Shown piece by piece: positions 6,001 through 9,000 of a stretch of DNA of 18,707 bases (its first letter is position 1; every line of letters begins with the position of its first letter). The position numbers are program-made. The stretch lies in IMG/VR virus record IMGVR_UViG_2541047425_000010; one strand, given 5' to 3'. This stretch comes from a virus. Lineage: Duplodnaviria > Heunggongvirae > Uroviricota > Caudoviricetes.

Positions 6001-9000
6001 AAACCGCGCTCCTGAGCAAAGTTTGGGGTGATTTTCAGCATGACGCCCCCTTGCCATTCGCCGGGATGATATCGATCCCAGCATCGCTATAACTGGTCAG
6101 TTTCTTTGGCATTCGAAGCAACACAAAGCCTTCAGTGCCACGACGTGCCAATTCACGCAATTTCATGACTGAGCGGGGTCGCGGAGAGCTACGATCGATC
6201 TCGATAGCCACACTCCCACCAGTTTTTGCTGTTGCGAGAATATCAACACGGAAATTTCTGCCATCGATTCTTACTGTGACATTGCTTGCCACATGCATCC
6301 CCTGTGACTCAAGGATCGTTACGACATCAGCCAGAAAGCTGTAACGCTCCTCTGTTCTCAGTGGTACAGTGCTCAGTGTACGGATCAGTGCCGATTTGGT
6401 TGCTGCTGACATAGTTTATCACTCAATAGTTAGCTCGATAATTATTTCACCAGGAACTATCGCGCGCTTATACAGTGATCTACCTAACCTATGTACCTGC
6501 CTTCTGGCCTAGGCCAAGGGATACAGGCCTTACCAACGACTCCACCCCCTTACCCCCTCCTCGCTTCCTTTCAGGAAATTAGTTGCATGTGAAATTATTT
6601 CTAGCGCAACTAACCGCCATCATGGTGTCGGGGGAAACTTCCGTACCGCTACTGGCGAAAGCATCCAGCCACGGCTGGCTCTCGCGTACTTCTGGACATA
6701 CACCCGTAACCGGGTGTTGGCGCTCCGTCTTGCCCTGTTGCCCTTCCTGAACGATACAGGCTCCTTGTCCCACTCTTCCTGGTACACTCTCGCGTACTCT
6801 GCTGCAATTTTTACCCGGGTGGTCGGGTCTAGCTGTAACAATTGCTCCTGTATCCAGTCCCGATCAGCATCACAGTACTGCTCGGGCATAACCGTTTTGA
6901 TTTGCCTGTTCACTCACACCTCCGATGGGCTGTGTGTCCAGGATTAATCATCGCCTCTTACGAACGCAGGGAACGGACGAACCTCTTCCGCCTCAACTGT
7001 GCCGTCATCAAAGGTTTTGACGTATATTTCTCGTCCGACGAGAAGCGCTTTACTGATTGCACTCTGCGCCACGCCAAAGTCCTTAGCGGCTTTCTTTTGG
7101 CCGAACCTGTATACGTAATCAGCCAGGGTCTCTTTTTTCATCGCCATAACTGACTCCTTCAAAATGCCCATATCATTACGCACAGTTATTAAAATGTCAA
7201 CACCGCAGATATTTCATTACATATAACCAAAGGTGATATGGTATGAACATGAAAAAGAAACCGTTAACCCCTGAGCAACTGGAAGACGCCAAGCGTCTGA
7301 AAAGTATTTTTAACGCTAAAAAGAAAGAGTTAGGCCTGTCGCAGGAATCATTAGCCTATGAATTAGGTGTTACCCAAAGCGCTGTTAATCAGCTAATGGC
7401 TGGCATCAACGCCATAAATGCCAGCCACGCAGCACAGCTTGCTAAGATACTGAATGTAAAGGTCGGAGATTTCAGTCCCAGCCTGGCAAAATCTATTGCA
7501 GAAATGGCGCTCGCAATTGAAGAGCCATTAACTCGTGTCCCCGCTTACGAATATCCGTTACTCTCCTGCGTACAAGCTGGCGCATTCTCAATGGATGATA
7601 TTTCGTACACCGCAAAAGATGCGATTAAATGGATCTCCACCACCACAAAAGCCAGTGACAGGTCGTTCTGGCTGGAGGTCAAGGGGCATTCAATGACCGC
7701 ACCGCAGGGTGGTAAACCCAGCTTCCCTGAAGGTATGCTGATACTCGTTGACCCTGAACGGGAAATCGAGGATGGCGATTTTTGCGTGGCCCGAATGAAC
7801 GGCGATGAATTTACCTTCAAACGATTCATTCGTGAGAGCGGTAAAGCGTACCTGGAGCCGCTCAACCCACGATTCGACATGATTGAGTGTAACGAAAACT
7901 GCCAGTTTGTCGGAAAGGTCATCAAATCGCAGTGGAATGATGAGACTTTTGATTGAGCTCACAGAGTGATTTGACATCCTTCACGCCTGAAGAATGTGGA
8001 GGATGTCAAAAGCACGTTGGCATCATCATGCCACGTAAAGAGGATTAGTTATGCTTCAAAAGCTAGACGTCGCAGACAGCGTGCGTCGCGAGCTGTCTCC
8101 CCGTACCGCGCGTAAACACAAAGCAGAGTTCGGCCAGTTCATGACGCCTTCTGGCGTGGCCCGTTTTATGGCCTCCTTGTTTCCACCGAGCACAATGAAA
8201 ACTTGCCGTCTACTGGACGCAGGCGCTGGTTTAGGCGCACTGTCTTGCGCCTTCCTCGACCGTTGGCTGGTTGGCGAGTTTGGCTTTGAGTCTGTCGAGG
8301 CAACAGCCTACGAAATCGACAAAAAGCTGTGTGGTCACCTTGCGAAGCACTTAACCGGGTACAGGAGAGTGACGCCCCGCATCATCGAAGGGGATTATAT
8401 TGAGCTGGCAACCGCCGAAGGTCTACAGGATCGAGGTTATACCCATGCAATACTTAATCCGCCTTACAAGAAGATCAATAGCCAGTCAGCCCACCGGCAG
8501 GCTCTTCGCACTGTCGGTATCGAGACGGTAAATCTGTATTCCGCCTTTGTTGCACTGGCTGTAGGTGAGGTTGCACCTGGCGGGCAGATAGTGGCCATAA
8601 TCCCACGTAGTTTCTGCAACGGACCGTATTACCGTCCGTTCCGTAATTTCATACTTGAGCGGGCAGCAATCCGCCATATTCATTTGTTCGAATCACGTAG
8701 CAAAGCTTTCAGGGATGACGATGTGTTGCAGGAAAATATTATCATCCGCCTGGAGCGTGGAGGCCGTCAGGAGGCTGTTACAGTCACAACTTCGACCGAT
8801 GATAGCTTTTTTGACCTGGTCACCTACGAACACCCATTTGACCAGATTGTGTACCCGGACGATTCGGAGCGGTTTATTCATGTGCCGACCACGCTCGAGA
8901 AAAGCACCATTGAGTTATCATCTGCCGTACAATGTTCGCTGGCTGATATTGGCGTGAAGGTATCGACCGGACCGATAGTTGATTTCCGACTGAAAGCTCA

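What the first reader, a model, noticed from the sequence alone, without database searches (positions are those of the whole stretch)
6413..6619. Intergenic region with a 12-bp perfect palindrome, G-rich direct repeats and an 8-bp inverted repeat
Between the cII-position ORF and the replication genes lie the palindrome tggcctaggcca, two AGGGGGT repeats on the minus strand, an 8-bp inverted repeat with a 19-nt AT-rich spacer and an AT-rich stretch (6431-6450). This combination fits either a replication origin for the adjacent helicase-primase module or a tR1/nutR-like regulated terminator.
Basis: seen in the sequence. Interest (0 to 1): 0.4.

Follow-up and report, generated by a model that had tools for sequence, protein, structure and literature searches.

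The report
Candidate replication origin of Stx phage
The 207-base gap in front of the DNA-copying genes of this Shiga-toxin phage holds sequence blocks that stay almost unchanged in distantly related phages; it is most likely the still-unmapped place where this medically important phage group starts copying its DNA, not a transcription stop signal.

Summary
The window is the early region of an Eru1-type Stx2a phage (PA2/TL-2011c group). All the listed features sit at the stated coordinates, but none is rarer than chance on its own.

Comparison with about 70 related prophage loci (Escherichia, Salmonella, Klebsiella, Xenorhabdus, Yersinia, Serratia, Buttiauxella, Brenneria) shows a conserved composite element. 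It always lies between a conserved 97-aa ORF and an SF2 helicase plus Toprim primase.

Read in the pR-transcript sense (window minus strand), the parts are:
- a fast-evolving AT-rich hairpin or palindrome (site L, 6579-6613);
- a G-run box (6540-6562), the most G4-prone and G-skewed spot in the window;
- a short hairpin whose stem is replaced between lineages (the 12-bp palindrome, 6505-6516);
- a 23-mer (6477-6499) that matches 22/23 in Fels-1, where flanking genes are about 62-66% identical, and is duplicated or triplicated in some lineages;
- a second AT-rich site (site R, 6426-6460).

No boxA, C-rich rut-type tract, intrinsic terminator, sigma-70 promoter or Rfam family is present.

The best reading (about 0.4) is the cis-acting origin of the Eru1 replicon, possibly opened by transcription (R-loop). 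The main rival (about 0.3) is a structured leader RNA. The tR1/nutR reading is not supported. No paper describes an Eru1 origin.

The parts
6579..6613 (-). Site L. A 35-nt AT-rich near-palindrome or hairpin that starts 6 nt after the stop codon of the 97-aa ORF. The central motif is GAAATAATTTC.
   Evidence: Inverted repeat I2. Half-site TAGTT-N6-GAAATAATT hits at 6580-6599(+) and 6593-6612(-). Across 9 Eru1-group variants, 96% of cells are paired, 2 pairs change on both sides (G-C to A-U; U-A/C-G), and G.U appears only in the sense-strand reading. It is the fastest-evolving part of the gap.
6564..6578 (-). A purine-rich lead-in, TTTCCTGAAAGGAAG, which can form a small hairpin (UUCCU-GAA-AGGAA). 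The GGAAG(A/C)G motif precedes the G-box in several lineages.
   Evidence: Read directly from the sequence. The same GGAAGAG-type lead-in is seen in Xenorhabdus loci and in the L092-type loci.
6540..6562 (-). G-run box, GAGGAGGGGGTAAGGGGGTGGAG.
   Evidence: It is the top G4Hunter 25-mer of the whole window, with an absolute score of 2.0. The core 6461-6579 has the highest G-C skew of the pR operon. Two or more runs of at least 4 G are present in every locus with the 23-mer that is not truncated, while the spacer varies (TAA, TTT, TTG, A, AAA, T).
6505..6516 (.). The 12-bp perfect palindrome TGGCCTAGGCCA, here called the central short hairpin.
   Evidence: Position confirmed. It is invariant in 13 Eru1-group variants. 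In L077 it becomes TGGCTTAAGCCA, a symmetric double change. Other lineages carry other short hairpins between the G-box and the 23-mer: AGTGC-GAA-GCACT, AGCGC-GAA-GCGCT, CCGC-GGA-GCGG and GTGCCC-GTAA-GGGCAC.
6477..6499 (-). The conserved 23-mer CAGGTACATAGGTTAGGTAGATC. It contains a GATC at 6477-6480 and a TAGGT-TAGGT tandem. It is iteron-like.
   Evidence: It is unique in the window. It matches 22/23 in Fels-1 and 21/23 in KPP5665-2, where ORF and helicase DNA are 61-67% identical. Its 18-mer core was found in 66 viral contigs, all in the same gene context. There are two copies 30 nt apart in Xenorhabdus L006/L008 and three related copies in Serratia L151.
6461..6476 (-). A conserved tail after the 23-mer, CACTGTATAAGCGCGCG. 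The consensus in relatives is T-A-A-n-A-G-G-G.
   Evidence: Alignments A4 and A5. The last base of the -10-like hexamer is G in all lineages, so it is not a sigma-70 -10 element.
6426..6460 (-).
   Evidence: Repeats D1 and I1. Half-site hit at 6440-6459(-). The L/R similarity test gives p about 0.01. The centre-to-centre distance from L to R is 152 bp here, 154 bp in Fels-1 and 156 bp in KPP5665-2. Site R matches 30/35 in E. coli L152 even though the downstream ORF there is only 38% identical.
6620..6913 (-). The 97-aa ORF at the cII position (phrog_852). It is always found immediately upstream of the element.
6035..6412 (-). The 125-aa ORF, a protein with a PD-(D/E)xK nuclease fold. It is optional cargo of the module.
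4521..6041 (-). Eru1A, an SF2 DEAH helicase. Its nearest NCBIfam model is RadD-like.
   Evidence: Pfam families ResIII, DEAD and Helicase_C. The best NCBIfam hit is RadD at 1.9e-25, which is below that model's cut-off. Named eru1A in PMC8044961.
3560..4531 (-). Eru1B, a primase with a zinc ribbon, DUF7146 and a Toprim domain.
   Evidence: Pfam families Zn_Ribbon_Prim, DUF7146 and Toprim_3. phrog_510, annotated as DNA primase.
7172..7200 (-). A pR-like sigma-70 promoter (TTGACA-17-AATGAT). Its transcript would run through cro, the 97-aa ORF and this gap.
   Evidence: Promoter scan, 10/12 match. It is the only site found in 5900-7400, and no terminator-like site was found on the minus strand.

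Best explanation
The gap 6413-6619 is the cis-acting core of the Eru1-type replicon (97-aa ORF, SF2 helicase, Toprim primase), and most probably its origin of replication.

Proposed mechanism. Every step below is inferred; none is shown.
1. Transcription from pR crosses the purine- and G-rich box (6540-6578). The G-rich RNA, paired with the C-rich template or joined to the G-rich non-template strand in a hybrid G-quadruplex, keeps the duplex open as an R-loop.
2. The displaced sense strand folds into short stable hairpins, including the 12-bp palindrome here.
3. The invariant 23-mer (6477-6499) is the landing site for the conserved replication proteins: the 97-aa protein and/or the helicase.
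4. The AT-rich hairpin-capable sites L and R, about 152 bp apart, serve as easily melted or hairpin entry points for the helicase and primase.
5. The 125-aa PD-(D/E)xK protein encoded just downstream is optional cargo, not the essential origin binder.

What is shown: the conservation, the gene context, the base composition and the base-pairing patterns. What is not shown: origin activity, R-loop formation and protein binding.
For: 1. Constant gene context. The 18-mer core of the 23-mer occurs in 66 IMG/VR contigs. Each shows the 97-aa-ORF homologue upstream and/or the SF2 helicase downstream (with the Toprim primase where the contig reaches it), and no other context was seen. The same architecture is found in prophages of eight genera.

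2. Selection on the non-coding sequence. The 23-mer matches 22/23 in Fels-1 and 21/23 in KPP5665-2, where ORF and helicase DNA are 61-67% identical. Reading frames across it differ between lineages.

3. Iteron-like behaviour. There are two copies 30 nt apart in Xenorhabdus L006/L008 and three related copies in Serratia, the first two 21 nt apart.

4. Links to initiator proteins. In Serratia L151 the slot between the element and the helicase holds a RepL/HTH_36-like protein (PF05732, 21.5 bits against a cut-off of 20.3). In Providencia PSTCR7lys the 125-aa domain is fused to a lambda-O N-terminal domain placed before a DnaB-type helicase.

5. No competing candidate. No other tandem or clustered direct repeats occur in 1800-7300. 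A complete 37-kb Klebsiella phage has no other recognisable replication gene.

6. The G-run box. It is conserved as a property (at least two runs of at least 4 G, with a variable spacer). It is the top G4Hunter segment of the window. It lies in the most G-over-C-skewed stretch of the pR operon, on the non-template strand downstream of pR. This is the arrangement that gives R-loops and hybrid G-quadruplexes at mitochondrial CSB II (PMC3488243, PMC4176368).

7. Short hairpins with replaced stems and GNA or GNRA loops lie between the G-box and the 23-mer. GCGAAGC-type mini-hairpins are known at primase start sites of phage G4 and RSF1010 ssiA (PMC13037366).

8. GTAC-type L and R sites are pseudo-palindromes with two different half-sites, and L is roughly the reverse complement of R. 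This is a DNA-level pattern. It recalls the two inverted ssi repeats of RSF1010 oriV (PMC8567376).
Against: - There is no experimental datum, and no paper maps an Eru1 origin.
- The window itself has only one full copy of the 23-mer, not an iteron array.
- The conserved core is not AT-rich (55-60% GC), and no DnaA or IHF consensus was seen.
- Hairpin substitutions favour G.U on the sense strand. That fits RNA as well as displaced single-stranded DNA.
- The L and R sequences change between phages whose 97-aa ORF, helicase and primase are 94-99% identical (cL118 against cL078). Those proteins therefore cannot read L and R in a sequence-specific way.
- L/R relatedness is significant in only 5 of 11 lineages tested.
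- The 97-aa protein has no recognisable DNA-binding fold.
- The origin could lie inside the helicase or primase gene, as in lambda O or N15 repA.
- The Serratia locus that lacks a G-box is a single case.
Confidence: 0.4

Rival explanations
1. The element acts as RNA. It would be a structured leader inside the pR transcript that sets the expression of the replication genes through stability, processing, translation, or factor-independent or factor-dependent antitermination. The hairpins would be RNA hairpins. The G-run, Shine-Dalgarno-like tract would be a ribosome or protein binding site or an anti-Rho tract. The 23-mer would be a binding site for the arginine-rich 97-aa protein.
For: - The region lies inside an operon with no promoter or terminator predicted between pR and the replication genes.
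- Site L has compensatory and G.U-type changes that fit pairing only on the sense strand: 13 sense against 3 antisense.
- In relatives, a hairpin with a conserved UURAAGG loop and a covarying stem follows the 97-aa ORF, with G.U counts of 35 sense against 8 antisense.
- A T-to-C change in CTTTTCC turns a predicted G.U pair with the G-box flank into G-C.
- The 97-aa protein has an invariant basic helix, R.ENRARHEANTRLR.
- Site R abuts the ribosome-binding site of the next gene.
Against: - The fold is no more stable than shuffled sequence (z = -0.53).
- There is no Rfam family, even at E up to 10.
- RNAalifold consensus structures differ between lineages: local hairpins in two groups and long-range L:R pairing in one.
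- GTAC-type sites show mixed sense and antisense mismatches, typical of DNA pseudo-palindromes rather than RNA stems.
- In the window, the palindrome's symmetric change affects the two central pairs, which could not close an RNA loop of 2 nt.
- Tandem duplication of the 23-mer at about 21 and 30 nt fits DNA-face binding better.
- No conserved mini-ORF follows the SD-like tract. Frames and lengths vary from 3 to 23 codons.
Confidence: 0.3
2. The element is a second, regulated promoter or operator region for the replication genes. Sites L and R would be operators for a phage-specific DNA-binding protein and would loop about 150 bp of DNA.
For: - L and R are related to each other in several lineages and lie 152-156 bp apart.
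- GTAC-type sites look like 18-bp pseudo-palindromic operators.
- In phage N15 the prophage repressor also controls the replication gene (my own recollection, not checked here).
Against: - No sigma-70-like promoter was found on either strand.
- The -10-like hexamer after the 23-mer ends in G in every lineage, and its spacing to any -35-like hexamer varies from 18 to 21 nt.
- The L/R motif does not occur in the cI-cro operator region or anywhere else in the window.
- The L/R type changes independently of the 97-aa ORF, the helicase and the primase.
- In E. coli, the L/R type also changes independently of the 125-aa ORF.
Confidence: 0.08
3. The region is a tR1/nutR-like regulated terminator.
For: - The position matches: downstream of cro and the cII-position ORF and upstream of the replication genes.
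- A hairpin (site L) directly follows the ORF stop and is followed by UUUCC.
- Relatives carry a boxB-like hairpin with a conserved loop.
Against: - There is no boxA within 3 mismatches on the minus strand near the region.
- No terminator-like site was found.
- The site L stem is AT-rich and is followed by only 3 U.
- The transcript is G-rich and C-poor, which is unsuitable for Rho loading.
- Eru1 phages have no N homologue according to PMC8044961.
- No element of this kind is conserved across lineages at site L.
Confidence: 0.04
4. Sites L and R alone are scars or targets left by repeated insertion of selfish nuclease genes (the PD-(D/E)xK ORF and the HNH ORF) next to a conserved core. They would have no function of their own.
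For: - The slot after site R holds a PD-(D/E)xK ORF, an HNH/NUMOD4 ORF, a RepL-like ORF or nothing.
- L and R are the fastest-evolving parts of the gap.
- The L/R type differs between cL118 (HNH ORF) and cL078 (PD-(D/E)xK ORF), although the other proteins are nearly identical.
Against: - L/R-like sites exist in loci with no nuclease gene (L092 and L143 types).
- Yersinia L149 has an HNH ORF together with GTAC-type sites.
- Site R is conserved between the window and L152 across a 38%-identical ORF replacement.
- The site L hairpin is maintained by compensatory changes.
Confidence: 0.08

Closest known systems
oriV of IncQ plasmid RSF1010, with RepA helicase, RepB' primase and RepC initiator
   Same: The replicon brings its own helicase and primase. 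The origin is a short non-coding region that combines repeats, a G+C-rich block and AT-rich parts. It has two hairpin-forming inverted repeats (ssiA and ssiB, 40 nt) on opposite strands where the primase starts. A GNA-type mini-hairpin (CCGAAGG) sits in ssiA (PMC8567376, PMC13037366).
   Different: I noted no sequence resemblance to RSF1010 oriV, and no formal comparison was run. The helicase here is SF2, whereas I recall RSF1010 RepA as a DnaB-like hexamer (own knowledge). The primase here is Toprim/zinc-ribbon type, whereas I recall RepB' as a primase of another, non-Toprim family (own knowledge). The window has one 23-mer, not 3.5 iterons. No RepC-like initiator is encoded in the window. 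The L and R sequences do not track the primase.
Transcription-primed, R-loop origins: mitochondrial CSB II at OH and ColE1 RNA II
   Same: Two G-runs lie on the non-template strand downstream of a promoter. Compare GGGGGTAAGGGGGTGGAG here, and GGGGGGTAAGGGGGGTTTGGAG in Xenorhabdus, with the G6-A-G8 then TTTGG of CSB II, which I quote from memory and did not check in the paper. At CSB II the nascent RNA forms a hybrid G-quadruplex and R-loop at the replication priming site (PMC3488243, PMC4176368).
   Different: R-loop formation was not tested here. This phage encodes a primase, so an RNA-polymerase-made primer is not needed. Transcription is by E. coli RNA polymerase, not a T7-like polymerase. 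No RNase H processing site is known.
Lambda ori, including the 933W-type Stx phages with O and P
   Same: The position in the pR operon is the same, just after the cII-position gene. Like lambda, it would depend on pR transcription passing through or near the origin (own knowledge of lambda). It has iteron-like repeats.
   Different: Lambda ori lies inside the O gene, with four 19-bp iterons and an AT-rich region, and uses host DnaB through P. Here there are no O or P genes (PMC8044961), the element is intergenic, the window has one 23-mer, and there is a G-rich box.
Satellite phage P4 ori/crr with the alpha primase-helicase, and N15 repA
   Same: The primase is of the P4-alpha N-terminal type (Zn_Ribbon_Prim plus Toprim_3). 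Replication would be independent of host initiators.
   Different: From my own knowledge, P4 uses octamer iterons (TGTTCACC) at two loci bound by the C-terminal domain of alpha, and N15 ori lies inside repA. No such octamers or second locus were seen here. Helicase and primase are separate proteins, and the helicase is SF2.
Lambda nutR/tR1
   Same: Only the position in the operon is shared.
   Different: No boxA, no boxB-type pentaloop hairpin in the window, no C-rich rut tract and no N homologue.

Membership tests
lambda-type nut site (nutR) | A boxA sequence (CGCTCTTTA / TGCTCTTTAACAA) on the transcribed strand upstream of a boxB hairpin | tested here: not met
   A search with up to 3 mismatches found no hit on the minus strand between 2976 and 11588. 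The only exact boxA is at 10722-10734(+), in the pL arm.
lambda-type nut site (nutR) | A boxB stem-loop with a short GNRA-like loop, recognised by an N-type antiterminator | tested here: inconclusive
   Site L is a hairpin, but its apical part is 19 nt and variable. Relatives, but not the window, have a hairpin with a conserved UURAAGG loop. No N homologue is reported for Eru1 phages (PMC8044961).
Rho-dependent terminator tR1 | A C-rich, G-poor unstructured rut region in the transcript | tested here: not met
   On the sense strand the core has G 38% and C 17%. This is the highest G-C skew of the pR operon.
Intrinsic (Rho-independent) terminator | A G+C-rich stem followed by a U-tract | tested here: not met
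   No terminator-like site was found on the minus strand in 5900-7400. The site L stem is AT-rich and is followed by UUUCC.
Iteron-type origin (lambda ori, theta plasmids) | An array of at least 3 direct repeats of about 17-22 bp | tested here: not met
   The window has one 23-mer plus at most one degenerate copy. Relatives have 2 copies (Xenorhabdus) or 3 (Serratia).
Iteron-type origin (lambda ori, theta plasmids) | An AT-rich unwinding region next to the repeats | tested here: inconclusive
   Sites L and R are AT-rich (about 27-30% GC) and flank the core. The core itself is 55-60% GC. Most relatives, but not the window, have an A6-7 tract after the 23-mer.
Iteron-type origin (lambda ori, theta plasmids) | Supports autonomous replication when the cognate replication proteins are present | not testable with these tools
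   This needs a cloning and replication assay.
R-loop / transcription-primed origin (ColE1, mitochondrial CSB II) | G-runs on the non-template strand downstream of an active promoter | tested here: met
   GGGGGTAAGGGGG lies on the sense strand, about 640 nt downstream of the pR-like promoter, with no predicted terminator in between. The feature is conserved as a property across lineages.
R-loop / transcription-primed origin (ColE1, mitochondrial CSB II) | A persistent RNA-DNA hybrid, or a primer 3' end, at the site | not testable with these tools
   This needs S9.6/DRIP, bisulfite footprinting and RNase H tests.
IncQ-type oriV with ssi signals | Two hairpin-forming inverted repeats on opposite strands, used by the replicon's own primase | tested here: inconclusive
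   L is roughly the reverse complement of R in the GTAC-type lineages, and both sites are palindromic in the window. However, the L/R sequence type changes while the primase stays 99% identical.
Described RNA families (Rfam 15) | A match to a covariance model | tested here: not met
   There is no hit in the region at gathering score. The best hit at E up to 10 is icaR 5'UTR at 19.5 bits against a gathering score of 88.
Sigma-70 promoter | -35 and -10 hexamers 16-18 bp apart, with T at the last -10 position | tested here: not met
   The scan finds none in 6413-6619. The conserved TAAnAG hexamer ends in G in all lineages.

The most novel reading that the evidence does not exclude
A lambdoid phage origin that has no dedicated initiator protein. 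Transcription from pR across a conserved two-G-run box would form an R-loop or hybrid G-quadruplex. This would be a bacterial counterpart of mitochondrial CSB II. The structure would be recognised directly by a PriA/RadD-like SF2 helicase together with a Toprim primase, and the invariant 23-mer would position the complex. This would explain why Eru1 Stx phages replicate without O/P-type proteins. It could also bear on their reported unstable lysogeny (PMC8044961).
Probability: 0.15. Interest if true: 0.8.

Novelty: new variant of a known kind. Interest (0 to 1): 0.55.

Why it matters
Eru1-type Stx phages were carried by the 2011 O104:H4 and 2006 O103:H25 outbreak strains. They lack lambda O and P and are reported to be far less stable as lysogens than 933W (PMC8044961). 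Toxin output follows phage replication, yet the papers that define the Eru types name no origin or cis-acting site for this replicon, and further searches found none.

This work gives a small, precisely bounded and testable candidate: 207 bp, with a 23-mer and a G-run box that can each be mutated separately. It also shows which neighbouring gene is dispensable: the 125-aa nuclease-fold ORF.

If the transcription-opened (R-loop) reading holds, it would be an unusual way for a temperate enterobacterial phage to start replication. It would also tie replication directly to pR de-repression.

Tried and rejected
- **Leader peptide behind the SD-like G-box.** Rejected. Candidate GTG/TTG ORFs have different frames relative to the conserved 23-mer and lengths of 3-23 codons. 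Several lineages have no start codon at a usable distance.
- **Remnant of a longer coding sequence.** The PHROG profile for the 125-aa ORF is 417 positions long, which raised this idea. Rejected: all three frames are closed, and the longer profile is explained by fusion proteins such as the O-like protein of PSTCR7lys.
- **CI/Cro operators.** Rejected. The lambda-type TATCACC operators at 7200-7240 are unrelated, and the L/R motif occurs nowhere else in the window. The Fels-1 operator region lacks GTAC sites.
- **Invertible segment flanked by inverted repeats.** Rejected. All 98 phage records and 135 E. coli genomes align colinearly in one piece.
- **The 125-aa protein as the L/R binder.** Rejected. 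It is absent or replaced in many loci, and site R is conserved across a 38%-identical allele swap.
- **The 97-aa ORF, helicase or primase as sequence-specific L/R binders.** Rejected by cL118 against cL078.
- **One consensus RNA structure for all lineages.** Not obtained.
- **GC-skew turning point as an origin marker.** Uninformative. The skew follows transcription direction and turns at the cI/cro divergence.
- **Fold of the 97-aa protein.** A generic three-helix bundle, uninformative.
- **PDB sequence search for the 125-aa family.** Nothing significant. The fold search did resolve it.
- **Literature searches for an Eru1 origin.** Nothing found.

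
Full report
**1. Where the window comes from**

The 451 bases around the finding are 95-100% identical to 98 phage records. Almost all are Stx-converting short-tailed phages of the PA2 / TL-2011c / VT2phi_272 / ArgO145 / P13374 group. A further 147 of 5,426 complete E. coli genomes hold a match.

The gene order on the minus strand is:
- a pR-like promoter (7200-7172);
- cro (6944-7183);
- a 97-aa ORF (6620-6913);
- the gap (6413-6619);
- a 125-aa ORF (6035-6412);
- an SF2 DEAH helicase (4521-6041);
- a zinc-ribbon/Toprim primase (3560-4531);
- a DUF1367 ORF and NinG.

This is the Eru1 replication region defined by Llarena et al. (PMC8044961). That paper names the helicase, primase and DUF1367 genes eru1A-C. 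It states that Eru1 phages lack O, P, N, CII and CIII homologues. It says nothing about an origin, iterons or this gap. The follow-up paper does not either, and further searches found nothing.

**2. The observation**

None is unusual on its own:
- 12-bp palindromes: 8 in the window against about 5 expected.
- 8-bp inverted repeats with short spacers: 17 against about 8 expected.

The 8-bp inverted repeat is the outer part of a 33-35-nt near-palindrome, which I call site L (6579-6613). The shared half-site TAGTT-N6-GAAATAATT hits three times in the window, all in this gap, against 0.13 expected. The motif was derived from these sequences, so that figure is generous. An independent shuffle test of L/R similarity gives p of about 0.01.

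**3. Standard signals are absent**

- No sigma-70-like promoter or intrinsic terminator was found in the gap.
- There is no Rfam family at gathering score, and nothing credible at E up to 10.
- The minus-strand RNA folds no better than shuffled sequence (z = -0.53).
- There is no boxA on the transcribed strand. The only exact boxA (TGCTCTTTAACAA) is at 10722-10734 on the plus strand, in the pL arm.
- On the sense strand the core 6461-6579 has G 38% and C 17%. This is the strongest G-over-C skew in the whole pR operon and the opposite of a Rho-loading site.

The tR1/nutR reading therefore has nothing in its favour except position.

**4. Distant relatives**

A tblastn search with the 125-aa ORF found Salmonella Fels-1 and Klebsiella KPP5665-2 at 37% identity. 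Both have the same order: cro, an ORF of about 97 aa, a gap of about 240 bp, an ORF of about 122 aa, helicase, primase. Scans of one genome per species and of IMG/VR, plus look-ups by protein, added loci from Xenorhabdus, Buttiauxella, Brenneria, Yersinia and Serratia, further Salmonella, and divergent E. coli prophages.

Read in the direction of transcription, these gaps share one architecture:
- site L;
- a purine-rich lead-in (GGAAGAG-like);
- a box with two or more runs of 4-6 G;
- 32-57 nt (usually about 40-57) holding one or two short hairpins;
- a block (G)GTACATAGGTTA(G/A)GTAGATC, followed by TAAnAGGG;
- in most lineages, an A-tract;
- site R;
- the ribosome-binding site of the next gene.

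The 23-mer matches the window in 22 of 23 positions in Fels-1 and 21 of 23 in KPP5665-2. The DNA of the flanking ORFs and the helicase is only 61-67% identical there. Reading frames across the block differ between lineages, so it is not coding.

**5. The block belongs to the module, not to the 125-aa ORF**

A scan of IMG/VR for the 18-mer core found 66 contigs. Each has the 97-aa-ORF homologue upstream and/or the SF2 helicase downstream, with the primase where the contig reaches it, and no other context appeared.

In about 20 of them the helicase starts about 146 nt after the block and there is no 125-aa ORF. In others the slot holds different genes:
- an HNH/NUMOD4 endonuclease-like ORF in L116/L118/L138 and Yersinia L149;
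- a 181-aa RepL/HTH_36-like protein in Serratia L151.

So the slot tends to hold origin-associated or selfish nuclease genes, and the 125-aa ORF is optional.

**6. Natural experiments on sites L and R**

- cL118 and cL078 have a 98%-identical 97-aa ORF, a 94%-identical helicase and a 99%-identical primase. Their L/R sequences are unrelated: TAGACGTC-type against GTAC-type.
- E. coli prophages L152 and L153 share cI and cro with the window and have a 96-98%-identical 97-aa ORF, but their 125-aa ORF is only 38% identical. Site R matches 30/35, the site L centre is kept (TGAAATAATTTCA), and the G5-TAA-G5 core of the G-box is identical. The 23-mer matches 21/23. The central hairpin is replaced by GTGCCC-GTAA-GGGCAC.

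Hence none of the four proteins can be a sequence-specific reader of L and R.

Within the Eru1 group, L and R are the fastest-changing parts of the gap, while the core is nearly invariant. L/R relatedness is significant in 5 of 11 lineages tested. The L-R centre distance is 152, 154 and 156 bp in the three loci measured.

**7. Base-pairing signals**

*Site L.* Across nine Eru1-group variants it keeps 96% of cells paired. It shows one G-C to A-U double change, one U-A/C-G exchange, and single changes that give G.U only when read on the sense strand. The statistical support is modest: 25 of 500 shuffles reach the observed score.

*The 12-bp palindrome.* It is invariant in the group. In the 84%-relative L077 it becomes TGGCTTAAGCCA, a symmetric double change.

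*Short hairpins in other lineages.* Different short hairpins lie between the G-box and the 23-mer, several with GNA or GNRA loops. One clean compensatory pair is AGTGC-GAA-GCACT against AGCGC-GAA-GCGCT. Their exact positions differ, so they are analogous rather than strictly homologous.

*A hairpin present in relatives only.* Relatives, but not the window, carry a hairpin with a conserved UURAAGG loop right after the 97-aa ORF. Its stem covaries, and it shows 35 sense against 8 antisense G.U mismatches.

*GTAC-type sites.* By contrast, these 18-mers have two different half-sites and mixed mismatches, with L roughly the reverse complement of R. That is a DNA-type pseudo-palindrome pattern.

These data show that pairing on the sense strand is under selection. 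They cannot tell RNA from displaced single-stranded DNA.

**8. The G-run box**

What is conserved is the property, not the sequence:
- GGGGGTAAGGGGG in the window;
- G5-TTT-G5 in L077;
- G6-TT-G6 in L029;
- GGGGAGGGGG in Fels-1 and KPP;
- G6-TAA-G6 in Xenorhabdus;
- four G4 runs in Yersinia.

It is the top G4Hunter segment of the 18.7-kb window. The 33 nt from GAAAGG to GGAG are 30/33 purines, read directly from the sequence.

Two G-runs on the non-template strand downstream of a promoter is the arrangement at mitochondrial CSB II. [quoted passage not shown]

The one locus with a RepL-like initiator gene (Serratia) lacks a two-run box and has three iteron-like copies. This is suggestive, but it is a single case.

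**9. Interpretation**

*Shown.* A conserved composite non-coding element, physically tied to the module of 97-aa ORF, helicase and primase. It has an invariant 23-mer that is duplicated in some lineages, a property-conserved G-run box, selected hairpins, and fast-evolving AT-rich flanks.

*Inferred.* It is the origin of this replicon (confidence about 0.4). Supporting points are:
- its exclusive association with the replication genes;
- its iteron-like behaviour;
- the absence of any other repeat cluster in the operon;
- a complete Klebsiella phage with no other replication gene;
- initiator-type genes in the adjoining slot;
- resemblance in layout to origins served by element-encoded helicase and primase, namely RSF1010 oriV with its two inverted ssi hairpins and a GNA mini-hairpin (PMC8567376, PMC13037366).

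The R-loop step is an analogy only. It fits the helicase type loosely: the helicase's nearest NCBIfam model is RadD, with weak hits to PriA and RecG. From my own knowledge, PriA starts replication from R-loops in rnhA mutants.

*Main rival (about 0.3).* The element is a structured leader RNA of the replication genes. It is supported by the sense-strand G.U bias and the operon position. It is weakened by the lack of a shared consensus fold, by the DNA-type pattern of the GTAC sites, and by the tandem copies of the 23-mer. The two readings are not exclusive.

**10. Limits**

- Alignments across lineages were anchored by eye on the conserved blocks.
- The L and R boundaries were defined after seeing the data.
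- The lineages are few (about 8-10 independent types), and many loci are close relatives.
- No experimental data of any kind were available.

Noticed in passing
[not shown]
   Followed up: partly
window 6620-6913 (-): The 97-aa ORF at the cII position is not a CII homologue. It belongs to a widespread family with no known function (phrog_852) and has an almost invariant motif, EPVSFR.ENRARHEANTRLR. The predicted fold is a three-helix bundle. It is always directly upstream of the conserved element.
   Followed up: partly
window 6679-6690 and 6787-6798: A perfect 12-nt direct repeat, CTCTCGCGTACT, lies 108 bp apart inside the 97-aa ORF. Both copies encode a YAR tripeptide. I do not know whether this is chance, a coding repeat or a DNA site.
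   Followed up: no
window 8051-10470 (+): A restriction-modification pair sits directly downstream of the cI-like repressor, on the pL side. It consists of an Eco57I-type methylase domain protein (8051-9520) and a BsuBI/PstI-family endonuclease (9517-10470). A related E. coli prophage with the same cI (L153) has other genes at this place.
   Followed up: partly
window 10722-10734 (+): An exact rrn-type boxA (TGCTCTTTAACAA) lies in the pL arm, inside a 65-aa ORF (10619-10816). No counterpart exists on the pR arm. This is notable because Eru1 phages are reported to lack an N homologue.
   Followed up: no
window 11089-11276 (+): Two Rfam hits above the gathering scores lie directly upstream of a Rha-family ORF (11331-11978): isrK (11089-11164, 58.7 bits) and C4 antisense RNA (11189-11276, 77.1 bits). 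This looks like a P1/P7-type or Gifsy-type antirepressor control module.
   Followed up: no
window 16993-17017 (G-rich on the minus strand) and 4140-4164: These are the second and third most G4-prone segments of the window, with CCCCCTCCCC at 17007-17016 and CCCCTCCCC at 4140-4148, both on the plus strand. The first lies in the gap between ORF 16483-16926 and a PAPS-reductase-domain ORF (17034-17912), antisense to those genes. The second lies inside the primase gene, on its sense strand.
   Followed up: no
L002 3765-3790, L003 3753-3778 and many other relatives (not in the window): A hairpin with a conserved loop UURAAGG(U) and a covarying stem lies right after the stop codon of the 97-aa-ORF homologue. 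G.U mismatches are strongly biased to the sense strand (35 against 8). This is a likely RNA element (boxB-like?) that is missing from the E. coli Eru1 group.
   Followed up: partly
window 11994-12034: A tandem repeat of a 19-nt unit (ATTAAATATCGGGGATTAA, 2.3 copies) lies between the Rha-family ORF and the next ORF.
   Followed up: no
L154 (NZ_CP076549.1) and similar 37-42-kb Klebsiella pneumoniae 'plasmids' in PLSDB: The one record examined in full (NZ_CP076549.1, 37 kb) is a complete integrase-bearing phage genome, related to KPP5665-2, that carries this replication module without the 125-aa ORF. It is recorded as a non-mobilizable plasmid and may be an excised or extrachromosomal prophage. 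The other Klebsiella records of 37-42 kb that hold the same helicase were not inspected.
   Followed up: partly
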